A stretch of DNA of 50,888 nt from an uncultured Patescibacteria group bacterium (GTDB lineage Bacteria > Patescibacteriota > JACMRA01), in contig CALIJC010000004.1 in NCBI GenBank assembly GCA_938017575.1, positions 1-50,888 on the forward strand. The letters run 5' to 3'. Each line of letters begins with the position of its first letter. Positions within the stretch are counted from its first letter, which is position 1. The position numbers and the translations under genes are program-made. Below are positions 5,598 through 40,858 of the stretch, in pieces. The notes under the pieces are model-generated. The model was given only the letters and a program-made list of their open reading frames with translations. It did no database searches and was not told where the DNA came from.

Positions 5598-5615
5598 TCC
5601 TCCAGTGGATATTGA

Positions 5616-6232: not shown

Positions 6233-6257
6233 AAAAAAAAAGAGGGCTGAGCTCTTT
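6233..6257 (-). terminator. Rho-independent terminator of the 14400-to-6289 operon
   Basis: On the minus strand, stem AAGAG / CTCTT with a 7-nt loop followed by a T9 run. Part of a roughly 55-nt block repeated at 14456..14513. Confidence 0.6.
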
Positions 6258-6288
6258 GAATTGTTGGTATTTTAGAAACTACCTCCTT

Positions 6289-6942: not shown

Positions 6943-7009
6943 ATCTGTGTCGTTAATAACGGTTAATTTTGTATCAAGTTCAACAAAGTGGTGACTTTTT
7001 TATTGTATA

Positions 7010-10020: not shown

Positions 10021-10028
10021 AAAATTTA

Positions 10029-10859: not shown

Positions 10860-10927
10860 AGTTGCTTATTTGGGTGTTATTTGGAATGATAGTAAAAAAC
10901 CTAGATATTGTCTACAAGCTATTAAAT

Positions 10928-11800: not shown

Positions 11801-11821
11801 ATTATTGAAATATTGGGGGTG

Positions 11822-12841: not shown

Positions 12842-12846
12842 AATAC

Positions 12847-14400: not shown

Positions 14401-14455
14401 ATAAGAGGTTTGGGAATTGGATAATTTAACGGTACGATTTAATTAATATTTGGTC

Positions 14456-14479
14456 AAAAAAAAGAGAGCTGAGCTCTCT
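14456..14479 (-). terminator. Rho-independent terminator of 14502..15377
   Basis: On the minus strand, a 7-bp stem AGAGAGC / GCTCTCT with loop TCA followed by a T8 run. Resembles 6233..6257. Confidence 0.7.
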
Positions 14480-14501
14480 GAATTGTTGGTATTTTTAGAA
14501 A

Positions 14502-15377
14502 TTACCTCTTCTTCTGGGCTTTTCTGAAAATCATAAAACCACTGATTCCTACTAAACCGAGAAGATAAGGTATGAAAGATTTATTACTGCCTTCTTTGCC
14601 TCCAGTTCGAACTAAAGATCCTTGGATGGCTTGGCCGTTCTCACTGACATTGTAACCTGAATATGCCCCTTGGAAACTATTTGGTGTTAATTCTAAACTA
14701 TACCTAAACCCGCTTGCAAAATCAATTACAGCTCCATTTTCACCAGCATCATTATTGAAAATATAGTTTGGATTTGTTGAGCAAAGTCCAGAACCTGATT
14801 CCACAAGTGCTAATGAAGTAACTGGGAGAGTAGGGATTGTGTACAAATTAGAACCAGAACTATCTTCACTAACTACTGTACCGTTAATACAAATTGATCC
14901 GTTAGTTATATTGGATAAACCAACCAACTGAAAAAGCCTGATAACTGGGCCACCGGCCTCGGTTGTTGCAGAAGTTATTTTTAAATTATCTGGCACTGTA
15001 TTGAAACCTGATAATACAGGGCTACCAGAGAAAACATAGCTGTAACCTGCATCAGCAACTAGGCGATCTATTTCTGCATTTTGGTTTACTAAATAGTTAC
15101 ACGGTAAATTAATATCTCCATCAAAAATAAAACTGAGTTCATTTACACTAGAAGTAAGAGGAGCGGTTTGGGTTTCTCCTCCATTTACTACAAAAAGTGG
15201 GGAATTATTTGTACAAACCAAAATTCTTGGAGCTCCTCCATTAATAGCATTTGCCTCCATATCGTTGGTAACTGATATACTGTTTGCAGTTTGCGCGTTA
15301 GTATTTATAAAAGAAGTGAACAGGCTAGAAACCATAACCAAAGAGGCTATGATTGGAAATACTTTTTTAGAATTCAT
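14502..15377 (-). CDS. Secreted surface protein with an LPXTG-like C-terminal sorting signal
   Basis: Signal peptide MNSKKVFPIIASLVMVSSLFTSFINTNAQT. The C-terminus is SLVRTGG-KEGSNKS-FIPYLLGLVGISGFMIF-RKAQKKR, i.e. motif, hydrophobic span, basic tail. Confidence 0.65.
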   Translation of the reverse strand: MNSKKVFPIIASLVMVSSLFTSFINTNAQTANSISVTNDMEANAINGGAPRILVCTNNSPLFVVNGGETQTAPLTSSVNELSFIFDGDINLPCNYLVNQNAEIDRLVADAGYSYVFSGSPVLSGFNTVPDNLKITSATTEAGGPVIRLFQLVGLSNITNGSICINGTVVSEDSSGSNLYTIPTLPVTSLALVESGSGLCSTNPNYIFNNDAGENGAVIDFASGFRYSLELTPNSFQGAYSGYNVSENGQAIQGSLVRTGGKEGSNKSFIPYLLGLVGISGFMIFRKAQKKR

Positions 15378-15420
15378 AATAGTCTAATTAAAAATAATAT
15401 TCACCTCAGTTTCAAATTGT

Positions 15421-15458
15421 TTATTAAATAAAACAGCCCAAGTATAGAACTTGGGCTG
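15421..15458 (-). terminator. Rho-independent terminator of 15486..16535
   Basis: Perfect 10-bp stem CAGCCCAAGT / ACTTGGGCTG with a 5-nt loop. On the minus strand it is followed by TTTTATTT. Confidence 0.7.
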
Positions 15459-15485
15459 AGGACAAATTTTGATTATTACCACTAT

Positions 15486-16535
15486 TTAGAAGTAGCTGAT
15501 TAAATTTTCTAGTCCAAAACTCACTTGAGAGTATGATATCCTCTCAATACTTAGATTGGATAACTGATCTCTGAGTGCTTTTATATAAACCTCCTGTGAA
15601 TTGTTTTTGGAATACAAAATTCTGGTATTGTACACAAGTTGAAGCAAGTTATCTAATGGTTGAATATTTTTTACTAGTAAATACCTTTCTCTCCCAAGGG
15701 AGGTTTGGTTGTAAAAACCTTCGTTTTTAAGATAAATAATAGTGTTAGTTATTGCAATTAATAGAAAAAAACCAGCCCTGTTAACATAATCACACTTATT
15801 TTCATAAGATAAGTATACCGACCATTGTTTTTCAAATTTCCAGTTGTTTGCTATTGAAGCTCCCAAAATGATATTTCTATCTTCATTTGTGAACTGCCTG
15901 GAATTATTGGTCTCAAATGAACCTTTACTTACAGCCATTTCGAAATAACTATTTACTTCTTCCAGGATGTAGTTAATCTCTAGGTTTTTTTCTTGGATCA
16001 GCAATAGAAATTTGTTAAGAATATCAAGATTCTTGCTTAATAAAATCTTTTCTTCTGCTGACATTAACTCCAAGACTTCAAGAGAAACCTCAAAACCTAA
16101 TTGACTTATCGGATCAGAATTATTTTGTATGTTTTCTGGATACTCATCTGATAGAACAATGTTGTAGACTAATTGACTTGCTACATAATTATTCAAGTAT
16201 ACCTCAAAACTACTATATTCATAAGATAATCCAATATAGAATTTTAAATAGATTCCTTTCAGATGACAATTGAATGTTATTTTCCCAGATCGCTTTTTTG
16301 TTGGTTTTACCATCTTTTTATTAGAGTGCGTTGAACTATCTAAATTGCTGATTTTTTGCTTCTCCGTGATACAACAATTTACTTGGCCAACCTCAACCCC
16401 AGCCAAAGAGAATTGATACAGGATATCATCTGGCCAAGAATTCTCAAGATAGTATTGTACTTTTACCGGTTTAATACTATTTACAATTTTTGCAATTTTT
16501 TTAGTATTGTCTGAACCAATTTTGGTTGATTGCAT
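15486..16535 (-). CDS. Hypothetical cytoplasmic protein, about 349 aa
   Basis: The track ORF extends to 16592. ATG 16535 is preceded by GAGGAACACCTC, so it is preferred. No TM segment or signal peptide. Confidence 0.6.
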   Translation of the reverse strand: MQSTKIGSDNTKKIAKIVNSIKPVKVQYYLENSWPDDILYQFSLAGVEVGQVNCCITEKQKISNLDSSTHSNKKMVKPTKKRSGKITFNCHLKGIYLKFYIGLSYEYSSFEVYLNNYVASQLVYNIVLSDEYPENIQNNSDPISQLGFEVSLEVLELMSAEEKILLSKNLDILNKFLLLIQEKNLEINYILEEVNSYFEMAVSKGSFETNNSRQFTNEDRNIILGASIANNWKFEKQWSVYLSYENKCDYVNRAGFFLLIAITNTIIYLKNEGFYNQTSLGRERYLLVKNIQPLDNLLQLVYNTRILYSKNNSQEVYIKALRDQLSNLSIERISYSQVSFGLENLISYF

Positions 16536-16690
16536 GAGGTGTTCCTCTAGATTGTACGCTAATATAATAGCATAGTAAATGACTAATGTCAACTTATAGA
16601 AAAGGTTGCTGATTTGTGAAAAACTCTGTGTTTTGACAATAAACTGTTATAAGTGTAATCTGTTACAAATTTGATAAGGAAATTTGCATA

Positions 16691-16825
16691 GTGAGAAATT
16701 TTAAGAGAACTAGAATTAATCTAGAGACCATTTCAATTATTATCGACAGGACATTCTGTGTAATTCTTGGGCTAATTTTTCTGGGAGGTTTATCATCTCT
16801 GGGATACCTGATATTATATTTGTAG
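16691..16825 (+). CDS. Possible 44-aa small hydrophobic protein (below the track cutoff)
   Basis: GTG is preceded by AAGGAAA 8 nt upstream. The product is VRNFKRTRINLETISIIIDRTFCVILGLIFLGGLSSLGYLILYL, a basic N-terminus plus one TM. TTGACA-N17-TAATCT lies upstream at about 16634. Confidence 0.25.
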   Translation: MRNFKRTRINLETISIIIDRTFCVILGLIFLGGLSSLGYLILYL

Positions 16826-16893
16826 TTAGGGTGTTTGATTTGACATTCATGATTTTGTGAGCTATATGTTATTTATTCAGTTGGGGAGAAACT

Positions 16894-17394
16894 ATGGATT
16901 CATTAACTGCTACAATTAAGAAACCAGTTTCATTAGATGTATGGTATAGTCGTAATTTTAGCTACCAAGGAGTAAATAAAAGCACATATTTTAATACGAT
17001 AACTATTATTAGAAATATTATTCCAGCTCAGCTATATATGGAGAGACTAATACCACATATTGAATTGGGCGACATTATAAATGTTGTCGGTTCGAATTTG
17101 GTTGGAACCACCTTTTTTCCAATTGTTGATTTAGTAATCAATGATAAAATAAATTTATATCTAAAGTTTGATGGCAAACTCTGGCATGTGATTGTCTTTA
17201 GCGGAGTTGAATTATTAGTGGCAGATAGGCTTACTTTTAGTATCAACCAAGACCTGGACGATCTTTTTTTCAAAGGGTTTGATTCGATGATATATTGTGG
17301 TAACTACTGCGATTCAAAGAAATTTTTTGGCTTTAGAGCAGAGCTAGAACATCTTATGGAGTTTTTGTCATTGATAAGGCCCTCTAGGAGATAA
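16894..17394 (+). CDS. Hypothetical protein, 166 aa
   Basis: ATG preceded by GGGGAG. Terminator at 17421..17450. Confidence 0.6.
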   Translation: MDSLTATIKKPVSLDVWYSRNFSYQGVNKSTYFNTITIIRNIIPAQLYMERLIPHIELGDIINVVGSNLVGTTFFPIVDLVINDKINLYLKFDGKLWHVIVFSGVELLVADRLTFSINQDLDDLFFKGFDSMIYCGNYCDSKKFFGFRAELEHLMEFLSLIRPSRR

Positions 17395-17420
17395 AAATAG
17401 GTTTTCCCTAAACATAACCA

Positions 17421-21616: not shown

Positions 21617-21645
21617 CGGTCAAATATTTTTTTGACCGCTTTTGT
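21617..21645. terminator. Bidirectional hairpin between convergent genes
   Basis: Perfect 8-bp stem CGGTCAAA / TTTGACCG, 6-nt loop, followed by CTTTTGTT on the plus strand. Confidence 0.6.
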
Positions 21646-23108
21646 TATTCGCTTCTAAGTACTTCGGTTGGGTTTTGCTTGGCTGCTGATAGGGAAGGGT
21701 ACAACCCTGATAGTAATGTAAATAATATTGCCAAGCCTAATGTTGCTGCCAAGATATATACAGGAATTGGTAAATCAAAACTGGTAATATCAAATTGGGC
21801 AAGGTTTTCTTGGATGTCGCTACTACTTAGTAATAATTGATCAAAAGCAAAGGACAAAACCGTCGTAGAGGCCAGAGCAAGTAGCCAGCCCAGTATCCAC
21901 CCAAGGATTCCTAGGAATATACTTTCAAATGTAAACAGATAGAATATATCATTGTTTGTCGCTCCTAGAGCTTTTAGGATTCCTATTTCTTTGCGTCTCT
22001 CTAGAACTGAGATTATCATAACATTTACAATACCAAAAATTGCCGCAAACAAAGCAATTGCAGCGAATATTCCCAGAATTATTGTAATTACAGTAAAGGC
22101 TGTATTGATTGAGCTGACCAAAATCTGACCTGTTGAAATAACCAAGTAATTTTTATTATTAAAGAAATCGATAACATCATCTAGGTTTTCAAAATTATCA
22201 ATAAATACATTGTGTTCAACATATCCTACGTTGTTAGGGTCTATAGTTTCATCTACTCCTAAAATAGCCTTTTCAAATAATGCTCTATCAGCAAAGAAAA
22301 ATGAATTCAAAGCCCCACCAAGCAGCCCTCCACCAGAAGACCTATCATCAATCACACCAACGATTTCTAGAGGGGTAATTTGAGTTTGTTTGATTTGCTC
22401 TTGGGTAACAAAGGTCGCTGTTTGAAAATCAATTTCTTTACCACCAGGGGCGATAGTTTGGACAGTGTTTAACTCAACGTTAATTTTTTTTCCTAGTAAC
22501 TCATCTGGAGAGTTAACATCTAGTTTTTCGAACAAAGGATTATTCTGATCACATCTGTAACATACCACGATTTCATTGGCCTCTGGAGCTGTAGTTTTAC
22601 CAATCCAGTTAGTCTTGTTTGTCTGATAGAAGAAATCAAATGGCTGATTTAGGACTTGGTATTGATGACAAGATTCATTCAGTATTTCCTGACTGGCAAT
22701 GGCTTTTTCAGGTTCAACTGCAATATTCACTGAAGTATTTACACATTCCACACTTTCGCTATTTGTGTTGACAAATAGACCTAGAATATCAGATGGAGCA
22801 TAACTAACTACGTTTGGTTGCTCATTAGATTCACTATCTCCCACACCATAGCTAATTGTCTTGAGTTTGGTATCTGGCCTGGCTTCAAATATAGATTGAA
22901 TTCCATCAATGTTATAGAACTGTACTGTTTTGGCCAGAGGTTGACTGTTTACTGCTGTTTTGAGCTTTGTTGAGAGTCCGGTTGAGAGTGTGACAGTGAG
23001 CAGTATTGCCCAGACTCCGATCATGATTCCCATGGAACTGAGTAGGACTCGACCCCATTTTTTTGTTAAATGTTTTGTTAGTAAGATAAAGAAAGCTTTT
23101 AAAGACAT
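21645..23108 (-). CDS. ABC transporter permease, FtsX/MacB type
   Basis: TM1, a large extracytoplasmic domain, then three C-terminal TMs with ERRKEIGILKALGATNNDI (FtsX box). Ends PTEVLRSE like its paralog. Confidence 0.85.
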   Translation of the reverse strand: MSLKAFFILLTKHLTKKWGRVLLSSMGIMIGVWAILLTVTLSTGLSTKLKTAVNSQPLAKTVQFYNIDGIQSIFEARPDTKLKTISYGVGDSESNEQPNVVSYAPSDILGLFVNTNSESVECVNTSVNIAVEPEKAIASQEILNESCHQYQVLNQPFDFFYQTNKTNWIGKTTAPEANEIVVCYRCDQNNPLFEKLDVNSPDELLGKKINVELNTVQTIAPGGKEIDFQTATFVTQEQIKQTQITPLEIVGVIDDRSSGGGLLGGALNSFFFADRALFEKAILGVDETIDPNNVGYVEHNVFIDNFENLDDVIDFFNNKNYLVISTGQILVSSINTAFTVITIILGIFAAIALFAAIFGIVNVMIISVLERRKEIGILKALGATNNDIFYLFTFESIFLGILGWILGWLLALASTTVLSFAFDQLLLSSSDIQENLAQFDITSFDLPIPVYILAATLGLAILFTLLSGLYPSLSAAKQNPTEVLRSE

Positions 23109-23109
23109 A

Positions 23110-24654
23110 TTATTCAGATTTTAGGGTTTCTACTGGGTTTGAACGACTAGCTCGAAGGGCTGGGAATAATCCAGAGATGAGAGTTACGATACAAGCGATT
23201 ATTAATGTAATTATTGCAACTCTGAAATCGAATGGGATATTGAAATCAGTTATTCCTAACTCTAATAGATTTTGCTCCCAGCCGCTATTGTTGGCGATTA
23301 TTCTTTCTAATGAGGCGGCGAATACAAGGGTAGAAATATACCCCAAGACAGTTCCAATAAACCAACCAACGATTCCCAAAGATAGGCTTTCGAGAGAGAA
23401 TATTTTGAATATATCAAAGTTGGTTGCTCCAAGAGATTTTAGGATTCCGATTTCTTTTTGACGTTTTAACACGGAAATTGCCATTACATTAGTGATTCCA
23501 AAAATAGAAGCAATGAGCGCAATGAAACCAAACAATCCTAGAACAATACTAACTACCAAAAACAATGTTTGAATTGCTTGCACAACTAATAAAATTGGTG
23601 ATGAAGCAAGAAATCCTTTTTCAGCTAGGGTTTCAATTGTAGGTTCTAAATTAGCATAGTCATTCACATATATATTATAAGCGGTGAATCCCAAAGTTGA
23701 AAAATCTCGACCATCAATTTGGTCAACTGCAGTTTTTAAAATAGATTCTGATCCATAGAAATTATTTCGCTGAGCCCCAATTGCGCCACTATTATCACTA
23801 CTATCATCAATAACCGCCACGATTTTTAATTCATTTAATTGCGGTGAAGTCACATTTTTATTGAGCTCTTGAACGTTTGTCACGTCAAAAATCTCACCAG
23901 CTTCTAGAAGCGAAGGGACTTGCACAAATTCACTACTAACTGTCTTACCAACTAATTCTTGTGGGCTTGTAATTCCTAGTTCTTTATAAAGAGGTTTTTG
24001 TGGGTTACAGCTATAGCAGGCGATTACTTCATTTCCTACAGGAGCTGTGGTTTTGCCTAGCCAATCATTTTTGTTTTCTTCATATATTTGGGTAAAATTA
24101 GTTATGCCGAGGTTAATTGAATAACACTCATCAGGGATTGATTGTGGCTGCTGAGGCGAGGGCTGTGTTGGCTGCTCTGGCTCATTTGTTGTCGCCTCTG
24201 AATCTTCAGAAATAAATGAAGGAGGTATATCTGCCGGAACTTCTGCTTGAACTTGTTGTGGGGTAATTAAAGCTGTAGTACACAAATTATTTGCAGGTTC
24301 TGGGTTGTTATTAACAAAAATTGAAATATTTTCTTCTAGGCTAACCTCTGAAACACTTTCGATGCTACTGATTTCACTAAAGGTTTTATTTTTATCCAAT
24401 GAAACAAATTTAGGAGGTCCGGAGATTTCAAAAAATGTTGTCGCTCCAGATTCTTCTTGTTGGATATTGATAGAGCGAGCACTTGGCTGGGAGTTAATAG
24501 CTGTAACAATTTTATCGCTTACACCAAAACTAAGCATGGTGGTTAGAGTAATTGACCAAATACCTATAACAATTCCAGCTGAAGCTAGTAAGACACGTAG
24601 CCAGTTTTGTTTGAGATATTTTCCAAGGAATAGGAATATTGATTTGATAGTCAT
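23110..24654 (-). CDS. ABC transporter permease, FtsX/MacB type (second paralog)
   Basis: Same architecture, with KRQKEIGILKSLGATNFDI. The periplasmic domain carries a P/Q-rich insert (EPEQPTQPSPQQPQSIPDE). Confidence 0.85.
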   Translation of the reverse strand: MTIKSIFLFLGKYLKQNWLRVLLASAGIVIGIWSITLTTMLSFGVSDKIVTAINSQPSARSINIQQEESGATTFFEISGPPKFVSLDKNKTFSEISSIESVSEVSLEENISIFVNNNPEPANNLCTTALITPQQVQAEVPADIPPSFISEDSEATTNEPEQPTQPSPQQPQSIPDECYSINLGITNFTQIYEENKNDWLGKTTAPVGNEVIACYSCNPQKPLYKELGITSPQELVGKTVSSEFVQVPSLLEAGEIFDVTNVQELNKNVTSPQLNELKIVAVIDDSSDNSGAIGAQRNNFYGSESILKTAVDQIDGRDFSTLGFTAYNIYVNDYANLEPTIETLAEKGFLASSPILLVVQAIQTLFLVVSIVLGLFGFIALIASIFGITNVMAISVLKRQKEIGILKSLGATNFDIFKIFSLESLSLGIVGWFIGTVLGYISTLVFAASLERIIANNSGWEQNLLELGITDFNIPFDFRVAIITLIIACIVTLISGLFPALRASRSNPVETLKSE

Positions 24655-25425: not shown

Positions 25426-25457
25426 AATAAGGGTATTCAATTATTATTTTCTATATA

Positions 25458-25471
25458 TGTCAATATTGACA
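25458..25471. promoter_or_regulatory. Perfect 14-bp palindrome carrying back-to-back TTGACA boxes in the divergent intergenic region
   Basis: TGTCAATATTGACA is its own reverse complement. On the plus strand TTGACA-N17-TAATGA precedes 25522. On the minus strand TTGACA-N17-TTGAAT precedes the ABC operon. Confidence 0.45.
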
Positions 25472-25521
25472 ATGTTGGAAATATGCACTAATGATTATGA
25501 AAGTTGTTGGGAGATTAAATC

Positions 25522-26055
25522 GTGAGTCAAATTATTCATCCAAGTTTATTGCCTCTTTTAGTAATTAGAGCTGAGACTAGGTTAGAGCAATTACAACTGG
25601 ATTCAAAAGTTAATACTGATGGCACATTTTATATACCTGGGGTTCTCTATCAAGATTATTTCAAGGAAAATACTTCTGTGGATGATCATTTTGATGAATA
25701 TAGTCTGGGTGTAATTTCAAATTTGTGTTTGAATGAGTATTTTTTACATATTTTCATGCATAATTTATTTAACTATCTTATTTTGAAGAACACACAAATT
25801 AGTCAGGTTTTGATTGAACAACTTCAACAAACTAATTTTAAAAAACAGAAGGATATTATTGAAACTTTTAAGAACCGAAAAAGTTGGAGTGTTGTAGATA
25901 TTCACGAATTTATTTTGCTTGGGCTTTTGGTAATTAGGAAAGATGAAATTTATACAAATCCTCTTTATTACGGAGTTCAAGAACAGTTACTGTTTACAAA
26001 TGCTTCTCTTCAAATAAAAGATGAATTTGATATGCCGGCAGAAGCTGTTTATTGA
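25522..26055 (+). CDS. Unknown-family paralog 1 (CLNxYYL / YTNPxYxG family)
   Basis: GTG preceded by GGGAGA. Motifs CLNEYFLH and IYTNPLYYG. No signal peptide or TM. Confidence 0.7.
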   Translation: MSQIIHPSLLPLLVIRAETRLEQLQLDSKVNTDGTFYIPGVLYQDYFKENTSVDDHFDEYSLGVISNLCLNEYFLHIFMHNLFNYLILKNTQISQVLIEQLQQTNFKKQKDIIETFKNRKSWSVVDIHEFILLGLLVIRKDEIYTNPLYYGVQEQLLFTNASLQIKDEFDMPAEAVY

Positions 26056-26090
26056 TGATTGTGTGTATTGATTCAGATTTTTCAATAAGT

Positions 26091-26121
26091 AGAGGCTGTG
26101 TAGATCAACAGCCTCTTTTTT
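26091..26121 (+). terminator. Rho-independent terminator
   Basis: Perfect 9-bp stem AGAGGCTGT / ACAGCCTCT, 8-nt loop, T6 run. Confidence 0.8.
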
Positions 26122-26375
26122 ACAGCCCTATTTATTAATTTGGTTTGATGAGTTGTGATTCTAGTGGGAATTTTTTGGTTTTTATAAAGTTGGTTGCGCC
26201 TTAGACAATTATATTAATTTTTCAAATCTGTTGAATTCTAAATCAAACCCCAAGTGTAAATCTGTTTACAACGGCAATGAATGAAACATTAAGAATGGGT
26301 TTTGTACTGTGTATTCATTGACAATTGGCTAATTCTGTGGTAAATCCTTATAGCAAAGTTCGAGGGGTTCAGGGG

Positions 26376-26903
26376 ATGATTATTATTCCAAAAGAATCAG
26401 CAGATCTCTATCATTTAAGATGTAATACTCATCTTAATAGTACAGAAAAGAGAAATTACAATTATATTAGTCCATATGATATAGAAATAGTTTCTCAAAT
26501 TGTTTTTGAAGGCCGGGATAAGGTACAGAATTTTCTATCTCCATCAGACATTGAGGAGCTTAAGGTGCTATGTTTAAACCAGTATTATTTATTTTTGTAT
26601 CTAGAAATGTTGTTTGGATACTTATCCCAGCAGCAAGGTCAGGTAAATATTGAGCAGTTTTTGTTTTCGAGGCCTAGTTTCAATATCGACTTAGAGAATG
26701 CCAAACAGTCTTTGAATCAACCTAAATTTAGCATATACAAGATTATGAATATGGTTGATAGTGGCTATCTCCTAATTGATAAAGGTGAATATTACACAAA
26801 CCCATTTTATTTTGGAGAGAAAAAACTCGTGAATTTCACTGATGTATATATTATGTCTCCAGATCTGGCTAATATCCAACCTGGTGTGCCATTTGTGTAT
26901 TAA
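26376..26903 (+). CDS. Unknown-family paralog 2
   Basis: ATG 26376 preceded by AGGGGTTCAGGGG. The track start TTG 26325 lies inside a TTGACA promoter box. Motifs CLNQYYLF and YYTNPFYFG. Confidence 0.7.
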   Translation: MIIIPKESADLYHLRCNTHLNSTEKRNYNYISPYDIEIVSQIVFEGRDKVQNFLSPSDIEELKVLCLNQYYLFLYLEMLFGYLSQQQGQVNIEQFLFSRPSFNIDLENAKQSLNQPKFSIYKIMNMVDSGYLLIDKGEYYTNPFYFGEKKLVNFTDVYIMSPDLANIQPGVPFVY

Positions 26904-26932
26904 TGTTGATTTGTGAATATTACTATGTGAGT

Positions 26933-26962
26933 GAGGTAGTTAAAAAACTGCCTCTTTTTTTT
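26933..26962 (+). terminator. Rho-independent terminator
   Basis: 8-bp stem GAGGTAGT / ACTGCCTC (one G-U pair), loop TAAAAA, T8 run. Confidence 0.75.
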
Positions 26963-27045
26963 GCATACTTGTATTGGTTTGTTTGACCACAAACGAAAAA
27001 TGTGTTAAATAATTCTTATTCTTGGAGAAAATCTGGAGAAAACTC

Positions 27046-27588
27046 ATGGCTAAGATTCCCGAACAGCTTTATGAAATTTTAGATAAGAGAGTTAATGATG
27101 CTCTGATAAGCTTAGGAAGAGAACCAAATGTTCGTGAATATAATCTCGAGGAGGCAATAAACAGTACATTATTGGAAAACCAAATTAATATTGGAGCGAT
27201 ATTTTCTGAAGATGATCTTGAATATTTACAAGAGCATTGTTTGAATGAGTATTATCTGTTTTTTGCAATCGCTTGTTTGTTTAAGTTTTTAGATGCAGAA
27301 GATGAAAGAAGTAAAGAAATTTCATTACAACAAGCCATTGAATCAGATCAAGAGTTTATTTGTTGCCAACAAAAAATACGTACTATATTGAGCCAGGCCA
27401 AATTTACTATTTTTGATGTGATTGAAATAATTGGAAAAGGTTATATCTTAATTGATATAGAAAAACCAACACTTTATACCAATCCGCTTTTTTATGGGGA
27501 TAAAGTTGAACTAGAGTTTGATTCATTTGAATTAACCAATAATAAAGGGAGGTGGCTAGACCTATCTTCAATTATATGTTCGAACTAA
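27046..27588 (+). CDS. Unknown-family paralog 3
   Basis: ATG 27046 preceded by GGAGAAAA. Motifs CLNEYYLF and LYTNPLFYG. Confidence 0.7.
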   Translation: MAKIPEQLYEILDKRVNDALISLGREPNVREYNLEEAINSTLLENQINIGAIFSEDDLEYLQEHCLNEYYLFFAIACLFKFLDAEDERSKEISLQQAIESDQEFICCQQKIRTILSQAKFTIFDVIEIIGKGYILIDIEKPTLYTNPLFYGDKVELEFDSFELTNNKGRWLDLSSIICSN

Positions 27589-27614
27589 ATATCAGCTAAT
27601 TATTTATTGTTACG

Positions 27615-27646
27615 ATTGGAGTATTTTTATACTCCAATGTTTTTAT
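27615..27646 (+). terminator. Rho-independent terminator
   Basis: Perfect 9-bp stem ATTGGAGTA / TACTCCAAT, 6-nt loop, then GTTTTTAT. Confidence 0.7.
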
Positions 27647-27732
27647 ATTAATTATAAATAACAGTATTTAGAGTTGACTAGGCTAAGAAAGTATGCTAAT
27701 TGAGAGATTGTTATGTATATGGAGAGTATACC

Positions 27733-28299
27733 ATGGCCTATATTCCAAGCAGCGGACATGATATTTTTAAAATTTGGACTAATAATAATTTAAATCAGTT
27801 TGATCAAGCCAAGCTAGGTTCAAGATCAGTTGTTCTGGAGAATCTAAATATTAAAAGAATAATAAATGATAGATTACTAACAACAAAGATTATTTCAGTC
27901 GAAGAAATGCTGACAGTAGCTGACATTGCTTTTATCAGATCACGATGTTTAAATGCATATTATTTATTTAGATTTTTGAAAGAGGTGTTTGAATCAGAAA
28001 GTCTTGCAGTTGATTCAGATTTTCCATTGAAAGAATATTATGAATCACTGGAGATTGCAGGGCAAGAGAAGCTAATAGCCAAACAATCTTTGTCGAGATC
28101 GGATATATCTTTGTTAGATGGTTTAGACCTTTTGGAAAGTGGTTATATCTTGATAAAAGGGGAATGGATTAACAGAGAGATTGTATCAAACCCTTTTTAT
28201 TTTGGAGATTCAATGAGATTGAATTTCAGTAGTATGGCTAACTTCAGTAGTAGAAATTTTGCTTCAGAGCCCGATCAAGGGACACCCTTTATAGACTAA
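27733..28299 (+). CDS. Unknown-family paralog 4
   Basis: ATG 27733 preceded by GGAGAG. Motifs CLNAYYLF and VSNPFYFG. Confidence 0.7.
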   Translation: MAYIPSSGHDIFKIWTNNNLNQFDQAKLGSRSVVLENLNIKRIINDRLLTTKIISVEEMLTVADIAFIRSRCLNAYYLFRFLKEVFESESLAVDSDFPLKEYYESLEIAGQEKLIAKQSLSRSDISLLDGLDLLESGYILIKGEWINREIVSNPFYFGDSMRLNFSSMANFSSRNFASEPDQGTPFID

Positions 28300-28363
28300 A
28301 GAGAGCTGTTTTGGAGTTGCATACTACATAGGGTGCAGTAATAAATACCAGCGTCTTATTTTT

Positions 28364-28392
28364 TTGACATAATATATTTCTTAAACTAAGTA
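28364..28392 (+). promoter_or_regulatory. Sigma70-like promoter placing the transcription start at or just before ATG 28401
   Basis: TTGACA-N17-TAAGTA, with only 8 nt between the -10 and ATG 28401. Confidence 0.4.
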
Positions 28393-28400
28393 TTTTTTAT

Positions 28401-28994
28401 ATGCATAGCATTCTACCAACTTTCAACTATTATAACAAATAGAATTCTCATAAACTATTTATTATTGTCCATGGGGGTAAAGCTGGTATTGATGACCCAT
28501 TTCTAAAAAAAATTTATTCCAAGATAAAAGATGGTGGGTTTAGTTATATTGCAATCCAGATGCCTTTCAAAGACAGAGGTGAAAACCAAACTAGGTCCCC
28601 TGAAACACTAGAAGAGATTCAAGTTGTTGAAAAAGTTATTTCTAGTTTGGATATTTCTAATTACAAGGTAATTAACTTTATTGGGAAATCTTTAGGTGGC
28701 TTAATACTCCAGCGATTTATTGAAAAATCTAAATTTAATACTAATAAACATCAACTTACAATACTGGGCTATTTGACTGAGTATGTTGATATTTCCAGCC
28801 TAAAAACTCAATTACATATTATTCAGGGAGAAAAAGACCGGTATGGAAAACTTGATGATTTAAACAAGTTAATTAGTGGTAACCCAAAGAAAGATATAGA
28901 ACTATCTGTTGTTGCAAAAGGCGACCATAGTTATCGAGATGAGAACAAAAACCCTCTTTATCAAGACAAGGCAGTTGAGCTAATTGAGATTTAG
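28401..28994 (+). pseudogene. Alpha/beta hydrolase (KANL3/Tex30-like, dienelactone-hydrolase-like) interrupted by an in-frame TAG at 28440..28442
   Basis: One frame reads MHSILPTFNYYNK-TAG-NSHKLFIIVHGGKAGIDDPFLKKIYSKIKDGGFSYIAIQ-MPFKD... The track ORF only starts at Met 28560, after the conserved HGG oxyanion strand. The catalytic triad candidates GKSLGG, QGEKD and GDHS lie downstream. Confidence 0.55.
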
Positions 28995-29009
28995 GTGAGT
29001 TAGAAATAT

Positions 29010-31831: not shown

Positions 31832-31902
31832 GGATGTATAGCTCAATGGTAGAGCTGCGGTTTAATACTCCGTGAGTGGGGGTTCGAATCCTTCTACATC
31901 CG
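31832..31902 (+). tRNA. 71-nt tRNA with an atypical anticodon arm; the canonical 7-nt loop reading gives anticodon AAU (nominally Ile), so identity is uncertain
   Basis: Acceptor GGATGTA / TACATCC, D arm GCTC-AATGGTA-GAGC, T arm GGGGG-TTCGAAT-CCTTC, 4-nt variable loop, discriminator G, no encoded CCA. The anticodon arm is GCGGT-TTAATAC-TCCGT, with G-U at its outer end and a U-U mismatch closing the loop. Confidence 0.75.
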
Positions 31903-31905
31903 CTT

Positions 31906-33821: not shown

Positions 33822-33899
33822 TTGAAGTCTGTTAGATCTTATTGACAACTTTTAGATTTTATAGAAAGACTTAAACACTGGTTTATATATTCGTTATAG

Positions 33900-34346
33900 A
33901 TGATGAATCAATTAGATTTACCAGATAGGGATTTTAAAGCCTATACATGCTTTTGTTTTAAAGGTTATAAGCCTGTTGATTTACACTGCACTCATTCGTA
34001 CTTTAATTTTACTAATCAAGAGGAGGTGGAGCAATCTGTTCAAATCATTAAGAAATATTTTTCTAAGAATAAGTTTATTAAAAAAGAATGGGTGTTTGAT
34101 GTTCCAGATTTTTTTGGTACAAAAAATAATATTCCGGTACTTAGAATGAATAATGAACTATGTAACCAAGAGTTGTTCTTGGATTTGAGGTCTAGCCTAC
34201 CAAATAGGCATGGTTTCTTAAAGTATAATCCTCATATCACAACTAATCTAGAATATTTCAAAGGGGTGGTTGATAGGTATTCGATCGTCATTAAAAATGA
34301 TCAGCTTAGGGAAGAGGTGTATACTATATTTGCTCATGGGAATTGA
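33900..34346 (+). CDS. Possible 2H phosphoesterase superfamily protein (LigT-like)
   Basis: Two H-x-T-x motifs 83 residues apart (DLHCTHSYF at His29, NPHITTNL at His112), similar to the LigT spacing as recalled. Otherwise unrecognised. Confidence 0.4.
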   Translation: MMNQLDLPDRDFKAYTCFCFKGYKPVDLHCTHSYFNFTNQEEVEQSVQIIKKYFSKNKFIKKEWVFDVPDFFGTKNNIPVLRMNNELCNQELFLDLRSSLPNRHGFLKYNPHITTNLEYFKGVVDRYSIVIKNDQLREEVYTIFAHGN

Positions 34347-34375
34347 ACCATGGTTTACAAAATGTGGAGACAGTA

Positions 34376-34407
34376 AAACCGTTGGTTTATATAGGCGGTT
34401 TTTTTTC
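34376..34407 (+). terminator. Rho-independent terminator
   Basis: Stem AAACCG / CGGTTT, 14-nt loop, T8 run. Confidence 0.55.
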
Positions 34408-34426
34408 GATGAATAATAAAATAACG

Positions 34427-34450
34427 TTATACGAAGCCAATAGATTTTTA
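34427..34450 (+). repeat. 24-mer motif copy A (TTATACGAAGCCAATAGATTTTTA)
   Basis: 23/24 identical to the reverse complement of the tetR-flanking repeats. Lies 81-104 nt upstream of ATG 34531 and 21 nt upstream of a TTGACA box. Confidence 0.7.
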
Positions 34451-34530
34451 GGTAAAACTAATCTGCCTAAATTGACATTTGTTGAATTATGTGCGATGGT
34501 TTGCAATGTAGCTCATGGAAAAGGCAAAAA

Positions 34531-35259
34531 ATGACGGCACTTGTAGTCAATAAATTAACAGAAAACAGACTGTTCGTTAATTGGTGGGGGAGCCTGAAAT
34601 CTCTTCTTTCTAGTAGCGATTTAGTCCTATGTACACATGTTCTTATCGTTTGTGTAAATATTGATAACTCTAAAGAGGATAGATTCTTTTTTAAATTATC
34701 TAATAAAAAAGCAGTGGTAAAGGTTAGTCACCCTGGCAGATACCGTATTGGTGTGATTCCGTTTTGGTTAGACAAACCAATGATAGGTTCTCTATATAGA
34801 TCCGAAATCTACGGAGACCTTAAATCAAAGAGAGAATACGAATTTTGGATAGGCCTCAATGGTTTGAAATCACTAGGTAGTAGGATTCATTTAAAAAACT
34901 ATGAGAAAGAAGGTCTGCTAATGAAAAATGAGGAAACAATTCATTTAATTAGCTCTAACCCTGCTGTTTTTAGTAAAGCTGATTTTAACTTTACAGAGTT
35001 GATGCTTTATAAACTTGTGGCCGGCTTAGTAAATAAATATAAACTACTACCCAGACCATATTCTATTACAAGCTGTAATTATATTGATTTACTACCTTTC
35101 TTTTTGTTGGCGCTATTTTGGGATGGGATAATATCCCTAATCAATATTGCTTTACAACCAGTCACTTACTTACTTGGTTTGATTATATGTTTTGTGTTCT
35201 GTTTATTTGAATTTATATTCTACCTTTGTAATAGAACAGCTTCATCACAAAACAATTGA
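34531..35259 (+). CDS. Hypothetical membrane protein, about 242 aa, C-terminal TM segments
   Basis: ATG 34531 preceded by GGAAAAGG. The track start 34489 is less likely. The C-terminal LLPFFLLALFWDGIISLINIAL and LLGLIICFVFCLFEFIFYL are hydrophobic. Confidence 0.55.
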   Translation: MTALVVNKLTENRLFVNWWGSLKSLLSSSDLVLCTHVLIVCVNIDNSKEDRFFFKLSNKKAVVKVSHPGRYRIGVIPFWLDKPMIGSLYRSEIYGDLKSKREYEFWIGLNGLKSLGSRIHLKNYEKEGLLMKNEETIHLISSNPAVFSKADFNFTELMLYKLVAGLVNKYKLLPRPYSITSCNYIDLLPFFLLALFWDGIISLINIALQPVTYLLGLIICFVFCLFEFIFYLCNRTASSQNN

Positions 35260-35339
35260 GTCTGCTAATTTTTAGCCTATTAGAGGCTGTAGCATTTGCC
35301 ACTTTAAAACATGGCAATATTTTTTAGGGTAGTTAGCTA

Positions 35340-35361
35340 TTATACGAAATTAATATTTTTG
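35340..35361 (+). repeat. 24-mer motif copy B (degenerate: TTATACGAAATTAATATTTTTG)
   Basis: About 20/24 with one gap. Embedded in a duplicate of the typA-proximal sequence. Confidence 0.5.
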
Positions 35362-35604
35362 CATAAAACCGTTGAATTATAGTAAATTTTGAATATGTTT
35401 TTCTTCCTCGCACACTATATTCAAACACGAGAGGGCTAGAGCAGGGTTAGTTGATTATAATTGACGCAAAACCTCTTTATATTTGATTTATTAATCTTGT
35501 AGCTATGTCATAGACAAGCTTTATCAATACTATTTTTAGGTGGGTGATTTTTTATTATAAATCATTTTAAATGAGACAGTTTTCTTCAGAAACAATAATA
35601 TATG

Positions 35605-35628
35605 TTATACGAAGTTAATAAATTTTTA
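35605..35628 (+). repeat. 24-mer motif copy C (TTATACGAAGTTAATAAATTTTTA)
   Basis: 22/24 to the consensus. Lies 78-101 nt upstream of the typA ATG and 17 nt upstream of TTGACA 35646..35651. Confidence 0.65.
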
Positions 35629-35705
35629 AAAAAATATCTTATAAGTTGACAAAACAGGGTAGTTAGGCAACTATTATTTAGCATATAACCGAATAAAAAT
35701 ATATA

Positions 35706-38604: not shown

Positions 38605-38624
38605 AAAGAGGAATATTCATATTT

Positions 38625-39701
38625 ATGAAAGTAATCATTATTGGAGCTGGAATTGCAGGAATTAGCGCAGCTCATTTGCTTGAAGAGCGAGGTGTTGAAT
38701 ATAGGCTTATAGAAGCATCTGCAAACTATGGAGGTAGAATCAAGAAAACTGATATGTTCGAAGATTTCCCGATAGATTTAGGAGCTGAATGGATTCATAG
38801 AATAATTATGGCTAGACCAAAACTAATGGAGGAATTATTATCTGGAAATTCTAAAACTTTCAAAACTTTACCTGATAGCCCTAAATCAATATACGGATGG
38901 AAATTTAATAGGCTTTGGAATATTAGTTTTATAAATAAACTCTTTAGCTTTGGAGATCATAAATTTGTTTCTTCGTCGTGGTATGACTATATTAGCACAA
39001 TCTATACAGAAACTATTAAATCTAAAGCAATCTATAATTCTCCTGTAAAATTTATTCGGTACGACACGGATAAAGTAAAAGTAAGTTGTACTGATAATCA
39101 AGAATTTGAAGCAGATAAAGTAATTATCACAGTACCAATTAAAATATTGCAAGGAGATTCTATTACCTTTGTACCGGCTATTCCTACAAGCCAACGAAAA
39201 GAAATACAGAAAGAAACGATGAGAGGTGGGATTAAAGTATTTATTGAATTTTCTAACAAATTCTACCCTGATTTACTGTTTACTAAATCCCTATTAACAT
39301 TTTTCGTTAATGGTGAACATATTTATTATAATGCAACTTTGAATAAAAATACGGATAAAAATGTTTTGGGGTTGTTTGTTGAAGGAAAGAGATCTGAGGA
39401 ATATACCTTGCTATCTGATGAAGAAGTTCTTGCAAAGTTGCTTAATGATTTAGATAAGGTTTTTGACGGGCAGGCATCTAAATATTATATGAGACATATT
39501 GTTCAAAACTGGACAAATGAGACCTATATTCGAGGTGCTTATTCCCATTTGAAAGGGAATCCAAAGAAGATGGGTGCTCCAATAGATAATAAGATATTCT
39601 TTGCAGGTGAGGCAATGAATAAACACAGACATCCAATTGCGGTGCATTCAGCATGCGAATCAGCTTATACAGCGATTGATGAAATTTTTAATGGAATATA
39701 G
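38625..39701 (+). CDS. FAD-dependent amine oxidase family protein (flavin/polyamine oxidase-like)
   Basis: MKVIIIGAGIAGISAAHLLEERGVEYRLIEASANYGGRI is a GxGxxG plus E ... GGR dinucleotide fold. C-terminal FFAGEA is typical of PF01593 members. Confidence 0.8.
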   Translation: MKVIIIGAGIAGISAAHLLEERGVEYRLIEASANYGGRIKKTDMFEDFPIDLGAEWIHRIIMARPKLMEELLSGNSKTFKTLPDSPKSIYGWKFNRLWNISFINKLFSFGDHKFVSSSWYDYISTIYTETIKSKAIYNSPVKFIRYDTDKVKVSCTDNQEFEADKVIITVPIKILQGDSITFVPAIPTSQRKEIQKETMRGGIKVFIEFSNKFYPDLLFTKSLLTFFVNGEHIYYNATLNKNTDKNVLGLFVEGKRSEEYTLLSDEEVLAKLLNDLDKVFDGQASKYYMRHIVQNWTNETYIRGAYSHLKGNPKKMGAPIDNKIFFAGEAMNKHRHPIAVHSACESAYTAIDEIFNGI

Positions 39702-39747
39702 ATGTATTATTTGATCTATTTTATAAACAATGCTAGTATAGTACTAT

Positions 39748-40214: not shown

Positions 40215-40284
40215 ATAACCATCTTGACCGTATTTGGTTTGTAGCATATTTCTAGATAACTCATTCTACGAGGGATTAAATATT

Positions 40285-40800
40285 GTGGATATTACTGGAT
40301 TAACAGAAGAACAGTGTGAGAGTCTTGAGAGACATTATAGATTAGAAGTTGAAGGTTTTGGTATTAAAAAAGGCTGGGTTGACCCATCTATTACTTCAGC
40401 TGGATGCATAGAAGAAATTCTTCATGAGAGGCAGGATTTTATTTATTATGACTCTGGACAAATTATCCAGCTACAGGGGTTGGTAACTGAACAGGCTCTC
40501 AATTATCTATTTGATATATGTAAAAATAAGTACTACCTATATCTATTCCTTAGAGAAATCTATCGTGAATTTTCAGACTCCTATCCAAAAGTAGCTATTA
40601 ACCTGGATAGAATAAAACATATCCATGTTGGAATTAAGGAGAAGAATCAATTAGTTGGGTCTGGATTGGAAACTGGTAATGATGCATACCATTATATTCA
40701 CCATTTCAGCGAAGGGTTTTATTTGGTAAATACAATAGATAAGACAGTTTGGACGAATCCATTTTATTTGCCAGAATTTAAAGAGGTGACTATCAATTAG
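40285..40800 (+). CDS. Unknown-family paralog 5 (distal copy of the 25.5-28.3 kb family)
   Basis: Motifs CKNKYYLY and VWTNPFYLP. GTG 40285 is preceded by GAGGGATTAAATATT, resembling the initiation region of paralog 1. The track start is TTG 40234. Confidence 0.6.
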   Translation: MDITGLTEEQCESLERHYRLEVEGFGIKKGWVDPSITSAGCIEEILHERQDFIYYDSGQIIQLQGLVTEQALNYLFDICKNKYYLYLFLREIYREFSDSYPKVAINLDRIKHIHVGIKEKNQLVGSGLETGNDAYHYIHHFSEGFYLVNTIDKTVWTNPFYLPEFKEVTIN

Positions 40801-40821: not shown

Positions 40822-40858
40822 AGTAGGTGCTTGTAAACTCGGTACCTACTATATTTTA
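40822..40858 (+). terminator. Rho-independent terminator
   Basis: 9-bp stem AGTAGGTGC / GGTACCTACT (one G-U pair), 11-nt loop, then ATATTTTA. Confidence 0.5.

What the first reader, a model, noticed from the sequence alone, without database searches (positions are those of the whole stretch)
25522..28299. Tandem array of four divergent paralogs (fifth copy at 40285..40800) of an unrecognised cytoplasmic protein family, divergent from a MacB-type ABC operon
Five ORFs of about 171-188 aa share two signature blocks and little else. The first block is C-[LK]-N-x-Y-[YF]-L (CLNEYFLH, CLNQYYLF, CLNEYYLF, CLNAYYLF, CKNKYYLY). The second, near the C-terminus, is G-[YF]-x-L-[IV] ... [YVW]-[TS]-N-P-[LF]-[YF]-[YFL] (YTNPLYYG, YTNPFYFG, YTNPLFYG, VSNPFYFG, WTNPFYLP). 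None has a signal peptide or TM. Each copy has its own promoter-like region and its own strong rho-independent terminator, so these are independent cassettes rather than an operon. Copies 1 and 5 also share their initiation context (GGGAGATTAAATCGTG vs GAGGGATTAAATATTGTG). I do not recognise the family. Arrays of diverged small cytoplasmic paralogs are the usual layout of immunity-protein repertoires, and the neighbour is an exporter-type ABC system, but that functional reading is inference.
Basis: partly seen in the sequence, partly recalled or inferred. Interest (0 to 1): 0.7.

Follow-up and report, generated by a model that had tools for sequence, protein, structure and literature searches.

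The report
Orphan five-copy acidic protein family
Five very diverged copies of a small acidic protein gene, each with its own promoter and terminator, sit in two variable spots of an uncultured candidate-phylum bacterium's chromosome and have no detectable relative in any database searched; their function is unknown, and a toxin-neutralising (immunity-like) role is the leading but unproven guess.

Summary
Five ORFs are true paralogs: c1 25522-26055, c2 26376-26903, c3 27046-27588, c4 27733-28299 and c5 40285-40800. They share 15-29% identity and two core motifs. All are soluble and acidic (pI 4.3-5.1). Each has a TTGAC[ACT] box 56-63 nt upstream of its start, a Shine-Dalgarno site and a downstream hairpin, so they are monocistronic cassettes. 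No relative was found. Pfam, NCBIfam, PADLOC, PHROGs and PDB sequences gave nothing. A profile search of 1.84 billion representative proteins returned only the five window proteins. Motif-seeded scans of viral and metagenome contigs were empty. Two AlphaFold models had no Foldseek match in PDB or BFVD. The host is a Patescibacteria bacterium that uses the standard code. Its nearest sampled relative is labelled Ca. Gracilibacteria (BipA 82% identical). That relative keeps the same gene order but lacks both family-bearing blocks: WecG-NUDIX directly abuts the ABC operon. The suggested link to the exporter is therefore contradicted. The immunity reading remains inference. It fits the fast divergence, acidity, non-catalytic conservation and variable location. 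It fails the polycistronic and known-Imm-family criteria of polyimmunity loci, and no toxin is nearby. I rate the interest as moderate.

The parts
25466..25494 (+). c1 promoter-like element: TTGACA, 17 nt, TAATGA. Its -35 box is half of the 14-bp perfect palindrome TGTCAATATTGACA (25458-25471), which also gives a TTGACA on the minus strand facing the ABC operon.
25522..26055 (+). Copy 1 (c1). 177 aa, GTG start after GGGAG, TGA-TGA stop, pI 4.92. Motifs CLNEYFL and YTNPLYYG.
26091..26122 (+). c1 intrinsic terminator: 9-bp GC-rich stem plus T6.
   Evidence: z -2.36
26318..26346 (+). c2 promoter-like element: TTGACA, 17 nt ending TGg, TAAATC.
26376..26903 (+). Copy 2 (c2). 175 aa from ATG 26376; the TTG at 26325 lies inside the promoter. 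pI 4.88. Motifs CLNQYYL and YTNPFYFG.
26933..26962 (+). c2 intrinsic terminator: 9-bp stem plus T8.
   Evidence: z -3.17
26983..27011 (+). c3 promoter-like element: TTGACC, 17 nt ending TGt, TAAATA.
27046..27588 (+). Copy 3 (c3). 180 aa, pI 4.34, net charge -17. Motifs CLNEYYL and YTNPLFYG.
   Evidence: AF2 model
27615..27644 (+). c3 intrinsic terminator: 10-bp stem plus T-rich tail.
   Evidence: z -4.47
27674..27702 (+). c4 promoter-like element: TTGACT, 17 nt ending TGc, TAATTG.
27733..28299 (+). Copy 4 (c4). 188 aa, pI 4.84. Motifs CLNAYYL and VSNPFYFG.
28301..28366 (+). Long imperfect hairpin followed by T7 after c4. A possible but weak terminator.
   Evidence: z -1.05
28404..28994 (+). 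Alpha/beta hydrolase (Abhydrolase_11) reading frame with an in-frame TAG at 28440-28442. It belongs to the same window-specific block as c1-c4 and is probably a pseudogene.
40224..40252 (+). c5 promoter-like element: TTGACC, 17 nt, TATTTC.
40285..40800 (+). Copy 5 (c5). 171 aa, GTG start after GAGGG, pI 5.10. Motifs CKNKYYL and WTNPFYL. It is the most divergent member and sits in a second window-specific block.
40822..40857 (+). 10-bp hairpin followed by AUAUUUUA after c5, convergent with the PriA C-terminal gene.
   Evidence: z -2.26

Best explanation
Shown:
- These are five real, separately transcribed genes of a lineage-restricted protein family in a standard-code Patescibacteria (CPR) bacterium.
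- They lie in two blocks that the nearest sampled relative lacks.
- The products are soluble, acidic proteins of about 175-190 aa.
- The two conserved blocks are a buried-looking aromatic helix (CLNxYYLF) and a beta-hairpin plus NPFY turn (GYxLI...YTNPFYFG). Everything else has diverged to 15-29% identity.

Inferred:
- The conserved residues form the fold core. No conserved polar set suggests catalysis.
- The proteins therefore most likely act by binding, not catalysis, on a common scaffold with free-evolving surfaces.
- The most likely role is a repertoire of cytoplasmic neutralisers. These would be orphan immunity/antidote-type proteins against protein toxins or other hostile factors met by this symbiont, each gene insulated and expressed on its own.
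- The array is not a partner of the adjacent ABC transporter.
For: - Real genes and true paralogs.
- The promoter at a fixed distance, the SD site and the terminator were duplicated with each copy.
- Soluble and uniformly acidic (pI 4.3-5.1). The window median is 6.45, and 32% of the other proteins fall below 5.2.
- Invariant residues are only C, N, Y, L, G, N, P, with no conserved His/Asp/Glu/Ser/Lys set.
- Two AF2 models give the same order of secondary-structure elements, and confidence is highest over the conserved core (pLDDT 70-83).
- Both family-bearing blocks are absent from the syntenic relative L004. Window versus L004 identities: BipA 82%, 6PGD 72%, ABC ATPase 65%, WecG-NUDIX 64%. 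The WecG-NUDIX/ABC junction also varies in other relatives.
- If the family expanded after that split, it evolves at least about 3 times faster than the neighbouring conserved genes. This is my inference from Poisson-corrected distance, -ln(identity): about 1.4 for the paralogs against about 0.45 for the neighbours.
- Tandem arrays of distantly related paralogous immunity genes, not interrupted by toxins and variable between genomes, are a described phenomenon: PMC3482391.
Against: - No toxin, secretion-system or recombinase gene lies in the 50.9-kb window.
- No Pfam Imm/SUKH or other immunity family is matched.
- Polyimmunity loci are described as tightly spaced and polycistronic. Extended ones are reported only from proteobacteria, bacteroidetes, firmicutes and actinobacteria. 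Here every gene has its own promoter and terminator.
- Acidity and fast divergence are not specific to immunity proteins.
- With only one genome, strain-level copy-number variation cannot be seen.
- dN/dS is uninformative because synonymous sites are saturated.
- The AF2 models are only of moderate confidence (pLDDT 58-63).
Confidence: 0.3

Rival explanations
1. The proteins are nucleic-acid- or ligand-binding regulators. The C-terminal helix plus beta-hairpin (GYxLI...YTNP) would be a winged-helix-like module, as in AbiEi-type antitoxin/repressors, and the single conserved Cys could sense redox state.
For: - c2 gives a weak PADLOC match of its C-terminal 50 residues to the N-terminal wHTH part of AbiEi (E 0.0023-0.0028).
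- Both AF2 models place a helix followed by a beta-hairpin there, with the best pLDDT.
- There is one invariant Cys next to conserved Tyr residues.
- A perfect 14-bp palindrome lies in the c1/ABC divergent promoter region.
Against: - The AbiEi hit occurs in only 1 of 5 members.
- Foldseek of both models finds no winged-helix protein above noise. The best such hits are GntR at E 7.2 and HucR at E 5.4.
- The C-terminal 60 residues are acidic to neutral (pI 4.5-6.8), not basic.
- No AbiEii-like partner is present.
- The palindrome is not repeated upstream of the other copies.
Confidence: 0.12
2. The genes are cargo of decayed mobile elements or prophage remnants, for example anti-defence, superinfection-exclusion or addiction functions, inserted at intergenic hot spots.
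For: - Both family-bearing blocks are insertions relative to L004. They travel with unrelated accessory genes: a nonsense-interrupted alpha/beta hydrolase, and an amine oxidase with a HIT-like fragment.
- The window holds several further lineage-specific blocks.
- Small acidic orphan proteins are typical of phage early genes (general knowledge).
Against: - No integrase, transposase, att-like flanking repeat or phage structural gene is nearby.
- There is no PHROGs hit and no BFVD structural match.
- There is no relative in IMG/VR contigs.
- The G+C of the genes (0.30-0.34) equals the genome background.
Confidence: 0.12
3. The family has a lineage-specific cellular role unrelated to conflict, for example adaptors, chaperones or assembly factors for the many lineage-specific surface proteins of this bacterium. 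Paralogs would have specialised to different clients.
For: - The window carries a 17-kb block of membrane-anchored proteins without Pfam matches that L004 also lacks.
- The family looks non-catalytic and built for binding.
- Each paralog has a strong housekeeping-type promoter.
Against: - The family genes are not adjacent to, or co-oriented with, any candidate client.
- Total absence from relatives argues against a core cellular role.
Confidence: 0.15
4. One reading: the array is functionally coupled to the divergent MacB-type ABC system, for example as immunity to a peptide that the system exports.
For: - c1 and the ABC ATPase are transcribed divergently from a 96-nt region with back-to-back TTGACA boxes.
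Against: - The ABC ATPase plus FtsX permease operon is conserved next to WecG-NUDIX in L004, L005, L006, L010, L011 and L012 with no family member.
- c5 lies 15 kb away from any transporter.
- No peptide precursor ORF is in the array.
- The transporter has no C39 peptidase domain.
Confidence: 0.04
5. The ORFs are decaying or non-functional.
For: - The neighbouring hydrolase is interrupted by a stop codon.
- No homologs exist elsewhere.
Against: - Five open frames of similar length are maintained despite saturated synonymous divergence.
- Core motifs, promoters at a fixed distance, SD sites and terminators are all conserved.
Confidence: 0.03

Closest known systems
Polyimmunity loci of polymorphic toxin systems (Zhang, de Souza, Anantharaman, Iyer, Aravind 2012, Biol Direct 7:18; PMC3482391)
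   Same: - A tandem, same-orientation array of distantly related paralogs of one small cytoplasmic protein family.
- No toxin cassettes between the genes.
- Content differs between related genomes.
- A second, separate copy lies elsewhere in the genome.
   Different: - The family is not SUKH or any Pfam Imm family.
- Each gene has its own promoter and terminator instead of forming a tight polycistronic array.
- There is no adjacent recombinase.
- No toxin was identified.
- The host is a Patescibacteria bacterium, outside the phyla in which extended loci were reported.
AbiEi-type antitoxins (N-terminal winged helix)
   Same: A short stretch, helix then G-aromatic-x-L-I strand, turn, aromatic strand, resembles the recognition helix and wing. 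One paralog gives a weak PADLOC hit (E about 0.002).
   Different: - Only 1 of 5 members hits.
- The module is C-terminal and acidic.
- There is no AbiEii partner.
- There is no structural match.
- The family is not a member.
Lineage-specific orphan multigene families of CPR/Patescibacteria genomes (general phenomenon; my own knowledge)
   Same: The proteins are small and hypothetical, have no Pfam match, are confined to a narrow lineage and lie in variable regions of a reduced genome.
   Different: - Here there is a five-fold expansion.
- Promoter-to-terminator cassette structure is conserved.
- No homolog at all is detectable among 1.84 billion representative proteins.

Membership tests
Polyimmunity locus (PMC3482391) | Tandem genes in the same orientation, encoding paralogous and often distantly related small proteins, never interrupted by toxin genes or cassettes | tested here: met
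   c1-c4 all lie on the + strand. Intergenic gaps of 320, 142 and 144 nt (from the refined starts) hold only terminators and promoters.
Polyimmunity locus (PMC3482391) | Members belong to a recognised immunity superfamily (SUKH, Imm families) | tested here: not met
   No Pfam-A or NCBIfam match at E up to 10 is shared by more than one member.
Polyimmunity locus (PMC3482391) | Small intergenic distances implying one polycistronic message | tested here: not met
   Every copy has its own TTGAC-N17-TA-rich promoter 56-63 nt upstream. c1-c3 have canonical intrinsic terminators.
Polyimmunity locus (PMC3482391) | Number and type of genes differ between related strains or genomes | tested here: inconclusive
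   The family is absent from the syntenic site in L004-L006 and L010-L012. These relatives are distant (BipA 82% or lower). The only same-strain data are identical.
Polyimmunity locus (PMC3482391) | Frequently adjacent recombinase (XerC/D) | tested here: not met
   No recombinase domain was found in any ORF of at least 110 aa scanned in window 518-48500; the last two ORFs (48725-50869) were not scanned.
Polyimmunity locus (PMC3482391) | The proteins neutralise cognate toxin domains | not testable with these tools
   No toxin candidate is in the window. The rest of the genome is not available.
Bacteriocin/lantibiotic immunity coupled to an ABC exporter | Co-occurrence with a precursor peptide gene and a dedicated exporter (C39-peptidase ABC or LanFEG/BceAB), conserved together | tested here: not met
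   - No peptide ORF is in the gaps scanned, c1-c2 and downstream of c4.
- The transporter is an ATPase plus two FtsX permeases without C39.
- The operon is conserved in relatives without the family.
AbiEi / winged-helix antitoxin | Significant profile match, winged-helix fold, basic DNA-binding face, adjacent AbiEii nucleotidyltransferase | tested here: not met
   - The PADLOC match has E 0.0023 and occurs in 1 of 5 members only.
- Foldseek finds no wHTH match.
- The C-terminal region has pI 4.5-6.8.
- No NTase neighbour is present.
Phage-encoded protein families (PHROGs / BFVD) | Sequence or structural similarity to a viral protein family, or presence on viral contigs | tested here: not met
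   - PHROGs gives no hit below E 0.2.
- The best BFVD Foldseek hit has E 0.54.
- IMG/VR scans were empty.

The most novel reading that the evidence does not exclude
The five genes could be the first polyimmunity-like antidote repertoire described in a Patescibacteria/CPR episymbiont. It would be built on a previously unseen fold that arose or diversified within this lineage, with each antidote on its own insulated promoter-terminator cassette instead of in an operon. That would point to toxin-mediated conflict, with the host or with competitors, as a force shaping CPR accessory genomes.
Probability: 0.15. Interest if true: 0.65.

Novelty: new variant of a known kind. Interest (0 to 1): 0.4.

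Why it matters
If the proteins are antidotes or binding modules under conflict-type selection, they would give a handle on how ultra-small symbiotic bacteria defend themselves. Almost nothing is known experimentally about that. They would also add a new protein fold or family to the immunity repertoire.

Even without a function, the locus is a clean example of a gene family that is invisible to every current database yet clearly maintained. Five diverged copies keep a conserved core, promoter geometry and terminators. The family lies in identifiable insertion hot spots of an otherwise syntenic CPR chromosome.

On present evidence it is still one more orphan family of unknown function in a lineage rich in such families. 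The claim should stay modest.

Tried and rejected
- Alternative genetic code (UGA read as sense, as in Gracilibacteria proper). Rejected. The conserved genes are full length under code 11, and the split PriA is split by TAA and is also split in the relative.
- Pfam, NCBIfam, PADLOC, PHROGs and PDB-sequence profile searches. Only isolated sub-threshold hits, each in a single member.
- Word-indexed search of 5.8 billion clusters and a full HMMER profile search of 1.84 billion representatives. Only the window's own five proteins came back.
- Motif-seeded scans of IMG/VR and JGI metagenome contigs with c2 alone (IMG/VR only), with the c1-c4 alignment (both collections) and with the c5+c2 alignment (metagenome contigs only). 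No relative.
It found only distant hits of 26-29%. The useful relatives came from protein searches plus contig look-ups.
- Foldseek of two AF2 models against PDB and BFVD. Nothing below E 0.5.
- dN/dS among the paralogs. Synonymous sites are saturated (pS 0.60-0.82), so the ratio is meaningless.
- Flanking direct or inverted repeats, or shared non-coding DNA between cassettes. Only the coding motifs repeat.
- Small peptide genes in the c1-c2 gap and downstream of c4. None.
- DKNYY family resemblance of the YTNPFY block. No Pfam support.
- Literature look-ups for the run and assembly accessions. Nothing found.
Full report
**1. What is in the sequence**

The window has four + strand ORFs at 25522-28299 and a fifth at 40234/40285-40800. 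A MAFFT alignment shows 15-29% pairwise identity. One is C, N, Y, L of C-[LK]-N-x-Y-[YF]-L. The other is G ... N-P of G-[YF]-x-L-[IV] ... [TS]-N-P-[LF]-[YF].

The similarity is not compositional:
- phmmer among the window's 135 ORFs gives E 1e-12 to 3e-19 between c1-c4. The c1/c4 pair is weaker, at 2e-5.
- A profile built from c1-c4 alone scores c5 at 32.7 bits. The best of 2000 shuffles of c5 scores 9.7 bits.
- No other ORF in the window belongs to the family.

Alignment and promoter positions fix the starts at GTG 25522, ATG 26376, ATG 27046, ATG 27733 and GTG 40285. The products are 177, 175, 180, 188 and 171 aa.

The standard code applies. Conserved genes are full length under table 11, and TGA is a rare stop.

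**2. Cassette structure**

- Every copy has TTGAC[ACT] 56-63 nt upstream of its start. A 17-nt spacer and a TA-rich hexamer follow: TAATGA, TAAATC, TAAATA, TAATTG or TATTTC. In c2-c4 the hexamer is preceded by TGn.
- TTGAC occurs only 65 times on this strand of the window, so 0.64 are expected in all 500 nt examined.
- All copies have GGAG-type Shine-Dalgarno sites.
- c1, c2 and c3 are followed by canonical hairpin plus U-tract terminators (z -2.4 to -4.5).
- c5 is followed by a good hairpin with a short U-tract (z -2.3). c4 is followed by a weak long hairpin with U7 (z -1.05).

The duplicated unit was therefore promoter, 5' UTR, CDS and terminator.

At DNA level only the coding motifs are still alike. 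Synonymous sites are saturated, with pS 0.60-0.82. The duplications are therefore old, and dN/dS cannot be interpreted.

**3. Properties of the proteins**

- None has a TM segment or signal peptide.
- All are acidic: pI 4.34-5.10 and net charge -6 to -17. The median pI of the 44 other window proteins is 6.45.
- Two AlphaFold2 models were built from the five-sequence alignment: c3 (pLDDT 62.8, pTM 0.61) and c2 (pLDDT 57.6, pTM 0.51). They agree on the order of elements.
- That order is: several helices; the aromatic CLNxYYLF helix; two or three helices; a helix ending in G-Y-x-L-I; a beta-hairpin; and a short turn helix at NPFY.
- Confidence is best (70-83) over the conserved core and poor over the first 25-35 residues and the tail.
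- The only invariant residues are one Cys, two Asn, Tyr, Leu, Gly and Pro. No conserved acid/base or nucleophile set suggests an enzyme. I read the two blocks as the fold core. This is inference.

**4. Searches for relatives**

- Pfam-A, NCBIfam, PADLOC, PHROGs and a profile search of all PDB sequences gave no significant hit. Each sub-threshold hit occurs in one member only, including AbiEi at E 0.0023 for c2.
- The word-indexed search of 5.8 billion clusters returned only proteins of this window. So did the exhaustive HMMER profile search of 1.84 billion representatives.
- Motif-seeded scans with tblastn confirmation found nothing in IMG/VR or in JGI metagenome contigs.
- Foldseek of both models found nothing below E 0.5 in PDB or BFVD.

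One caveat applies. A relative as far from the profile as c5 is from c1-c4 (about 33 bits) would have E of about 4e-3 in the 1.84-billion library. That is just beyond the reporting cut-off. I calculated this. The claim is therefore 'no relative closer than that', not 'none exists'.

Independent Logan contigs from run ERR9287624 reproduce c1-c2 and c3-c4 at 99.93-100% identity. The sequence is therefore not an assembly artefact of one pipeline.

**5. Genomic context and origin**

The neighbours are ordinary chromosomal genes:
- 6PGD, GtrA, an AI-2E transporter, and an ABC ATPase with two FtsX permeases;
- WecG-NUDIX, DnaN, an M50 protease, BipA and split PriA;
- a LigA fragment, an M17 peptidase, DnaG and TetR.

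The best homolog of the permease and of WecG-NUDIX is from 'Candidatus Gracilibacteria bacterium' GCA_012031925.1 / GCA_012036295.1. Those contigs (L004-L006) are collinear with the window. Identities are BipA 82%, 6PGD 72%, M50 68%, ABC ATPase 65%, WecG-NUDIX 64% and DnaN 60%.

In these relatives:
- WecG-NUDIX is followed after about 100 bp by the ABC ATPase. The whole 3.6-kb block 25441-29009, which holds c1-c4 and the hydrolase frame, is missing.
- Only a 69-aa ORF lies between the 323-aa gene and PriA_C. The window has an amine oxidase, a HIT-like 97-aa ORF and c5 there.

More distant relatives (L010-L012, WecG-NUDIX 54-57%) keep the WecG-NUDIX/ABC linkage. The spacer varies: nothing, an 86-aa ORF, or a 108-aa ORF plus an AIRS-domain gene.

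The family HMM finds nothing in six-frame translations of any of these loci. No integrase, transposase or flanking repeat marks the blocks. Their G+C equals the background.

The family thus sits in two junctions that vary between relatives in an otherwise syntenic chromosome. It was either gained or greatly accelerated in this lineage. If it expanded after the split from L004, its amino-acid divergence is at least about 3 times that of the conserved neighbours. This is my inference.

**6. Interpretation**

The link to the ABC system is contradicted. The operon is conserved without the family in every relative examined. c5 is nowhere near a transporter. No peptide precursor gene is present.

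The immunity-repertoire idea is the best available functional guess, but it is only an inference. 'Polyimmunity loci' are tandem, same-orientation arrays of distantly related paralogous immunity genes, without intervening toxins and variable between genomes (PMC3482391). They match the layout here. However, they are described as tightly spaced and polycistronic, made of recognised Imm/SUKH families, often next to recombinases, and extended ones are confined to four other phyla. None of that holds here, and there is no toxin in the window. I give this reading 0.3.

The rivals are:
- a winged-helix-like regulator (0.12), weakened by acidity, the lack of structural matches and the one-member hit;
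- mobile-element or phage cargo (0.12), weakened by the absence of any mobile or viral signature;
- a lineage-specific non-conflict binding role (0.15);
- coupling to the ABC system (0.04);
- decay (0.03).

The probability left over belongs to functions I cannot name.

**7. Novelty and score**

As a protein family it is unclassified and, so far, unique to one genome. As a genomic phenomenon it resembles known layouts: a diverged paralog array in a variable region of a CPR genome, possibly polyimmunity-like. I therefore file it as a new variant of a known kind and not as categorically new.

I score interest at 0.4. But orphan families are common in these lineages, and nothing here yet points to a new mechanism.

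Noticed in passing
window 28404-28994 (+): The alpha/beta hydrolase (Abhydrolase_11) has a full-length frame starting at ATG 28404, interrupted by an in-frame TAG at 28440-28442 (MHSILPTFNYYNK*NSHKLFIIVHGG...). The ORF callable from ATG 28560 lacks the N-terminal strand and the HGG box. An independent Logan contig has the identical sequence. It is a pseudogene or a read-through/recoding case, and the gene is absent from the syntenic relative.
   Followed up: partly
window 25458-25471: A perfect 14-bp palindrome, TGTCAATATTGACA, lies in the 96-nt region between the ABC ATPase gene and c1. It provides a TTGACA -35-like box on each strand. This could be back-to-back divergent promoters or an operator. 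One of the five SNPs against the Logan contig (25451) lies next to it.
   Followed up: partly
window 31832-31903 (+): ARAGORN calls the only tRNA in the window as tRNA-Ile with anticodon AAT, which is unusual for bacteria. Rfam confirms a tRNA (61.5 bits).
   Followed up: no
window 40900-41847 and 41856-42974 (-): PriA is split into two ORFs by a TAA stop: an N-terminal 3'-DNA-binding part and a PriA_C part. The same split, a 284-aa ORF followed by a 315-aa PriA_C ORF, is present in relative L004. The split is therefore conserved and not an error.
   Followed up: partly
window 43080-43805 (-): A 241-aa ORF carries only the NAD-dependent DNA ligase adenylation domain. No OB/BRCT-containing remainder was seen next to it.
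   Followed up: no
window ~500-17400: A block of about 17 kb is absent from L004, where the homolog of window ORF 3-425 lies next to 6PGD. It encodes mostly proteins with no Pfam match and N-terminal membrane anchors. It also holds a DKNYY-repeat protein (8401-10020), a DUF2807 protein and a paralog pair (6289-6942 / 7010-7786, E 1e-11). It looks like a lineage-specific cell-surface island.
   Followed up: partly
window 33822-35696 and 38605-40284: There are further window-specific insertions relative to L004. Two ORFs without Pfam matches (148 aa and 256 aa) lie between the M50 protease and BipA. A flavin amine oxidase (38625-39701) and a 97-aa HIT-like fragment (SLHIHIYGR, 39921-40214) lie upstream of c5.
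   Followed up: partly
window 21645-24654 (-); L004, L010, L011: The two FtsX permease genes are tandem paralogs (E 1e-100, about 40-49% identity to the single best L004 ortholog). The duplication is shared with relatives.
   Followed up: partly
L004 9080-9179; L010 5522-5525; L011 9434-11110; L012 9452-9809: The junction between WecG-NUDIX and the ABC operon is a variable spot across the lineage. The spacer is empty, or holds an 86-aa ORF, or a 108-aa ORF plus an AIRS-domain gene, or the ABC operon is inverted. In the window it holds c1-c4 plus the hydrolase.
   Followed up: partly
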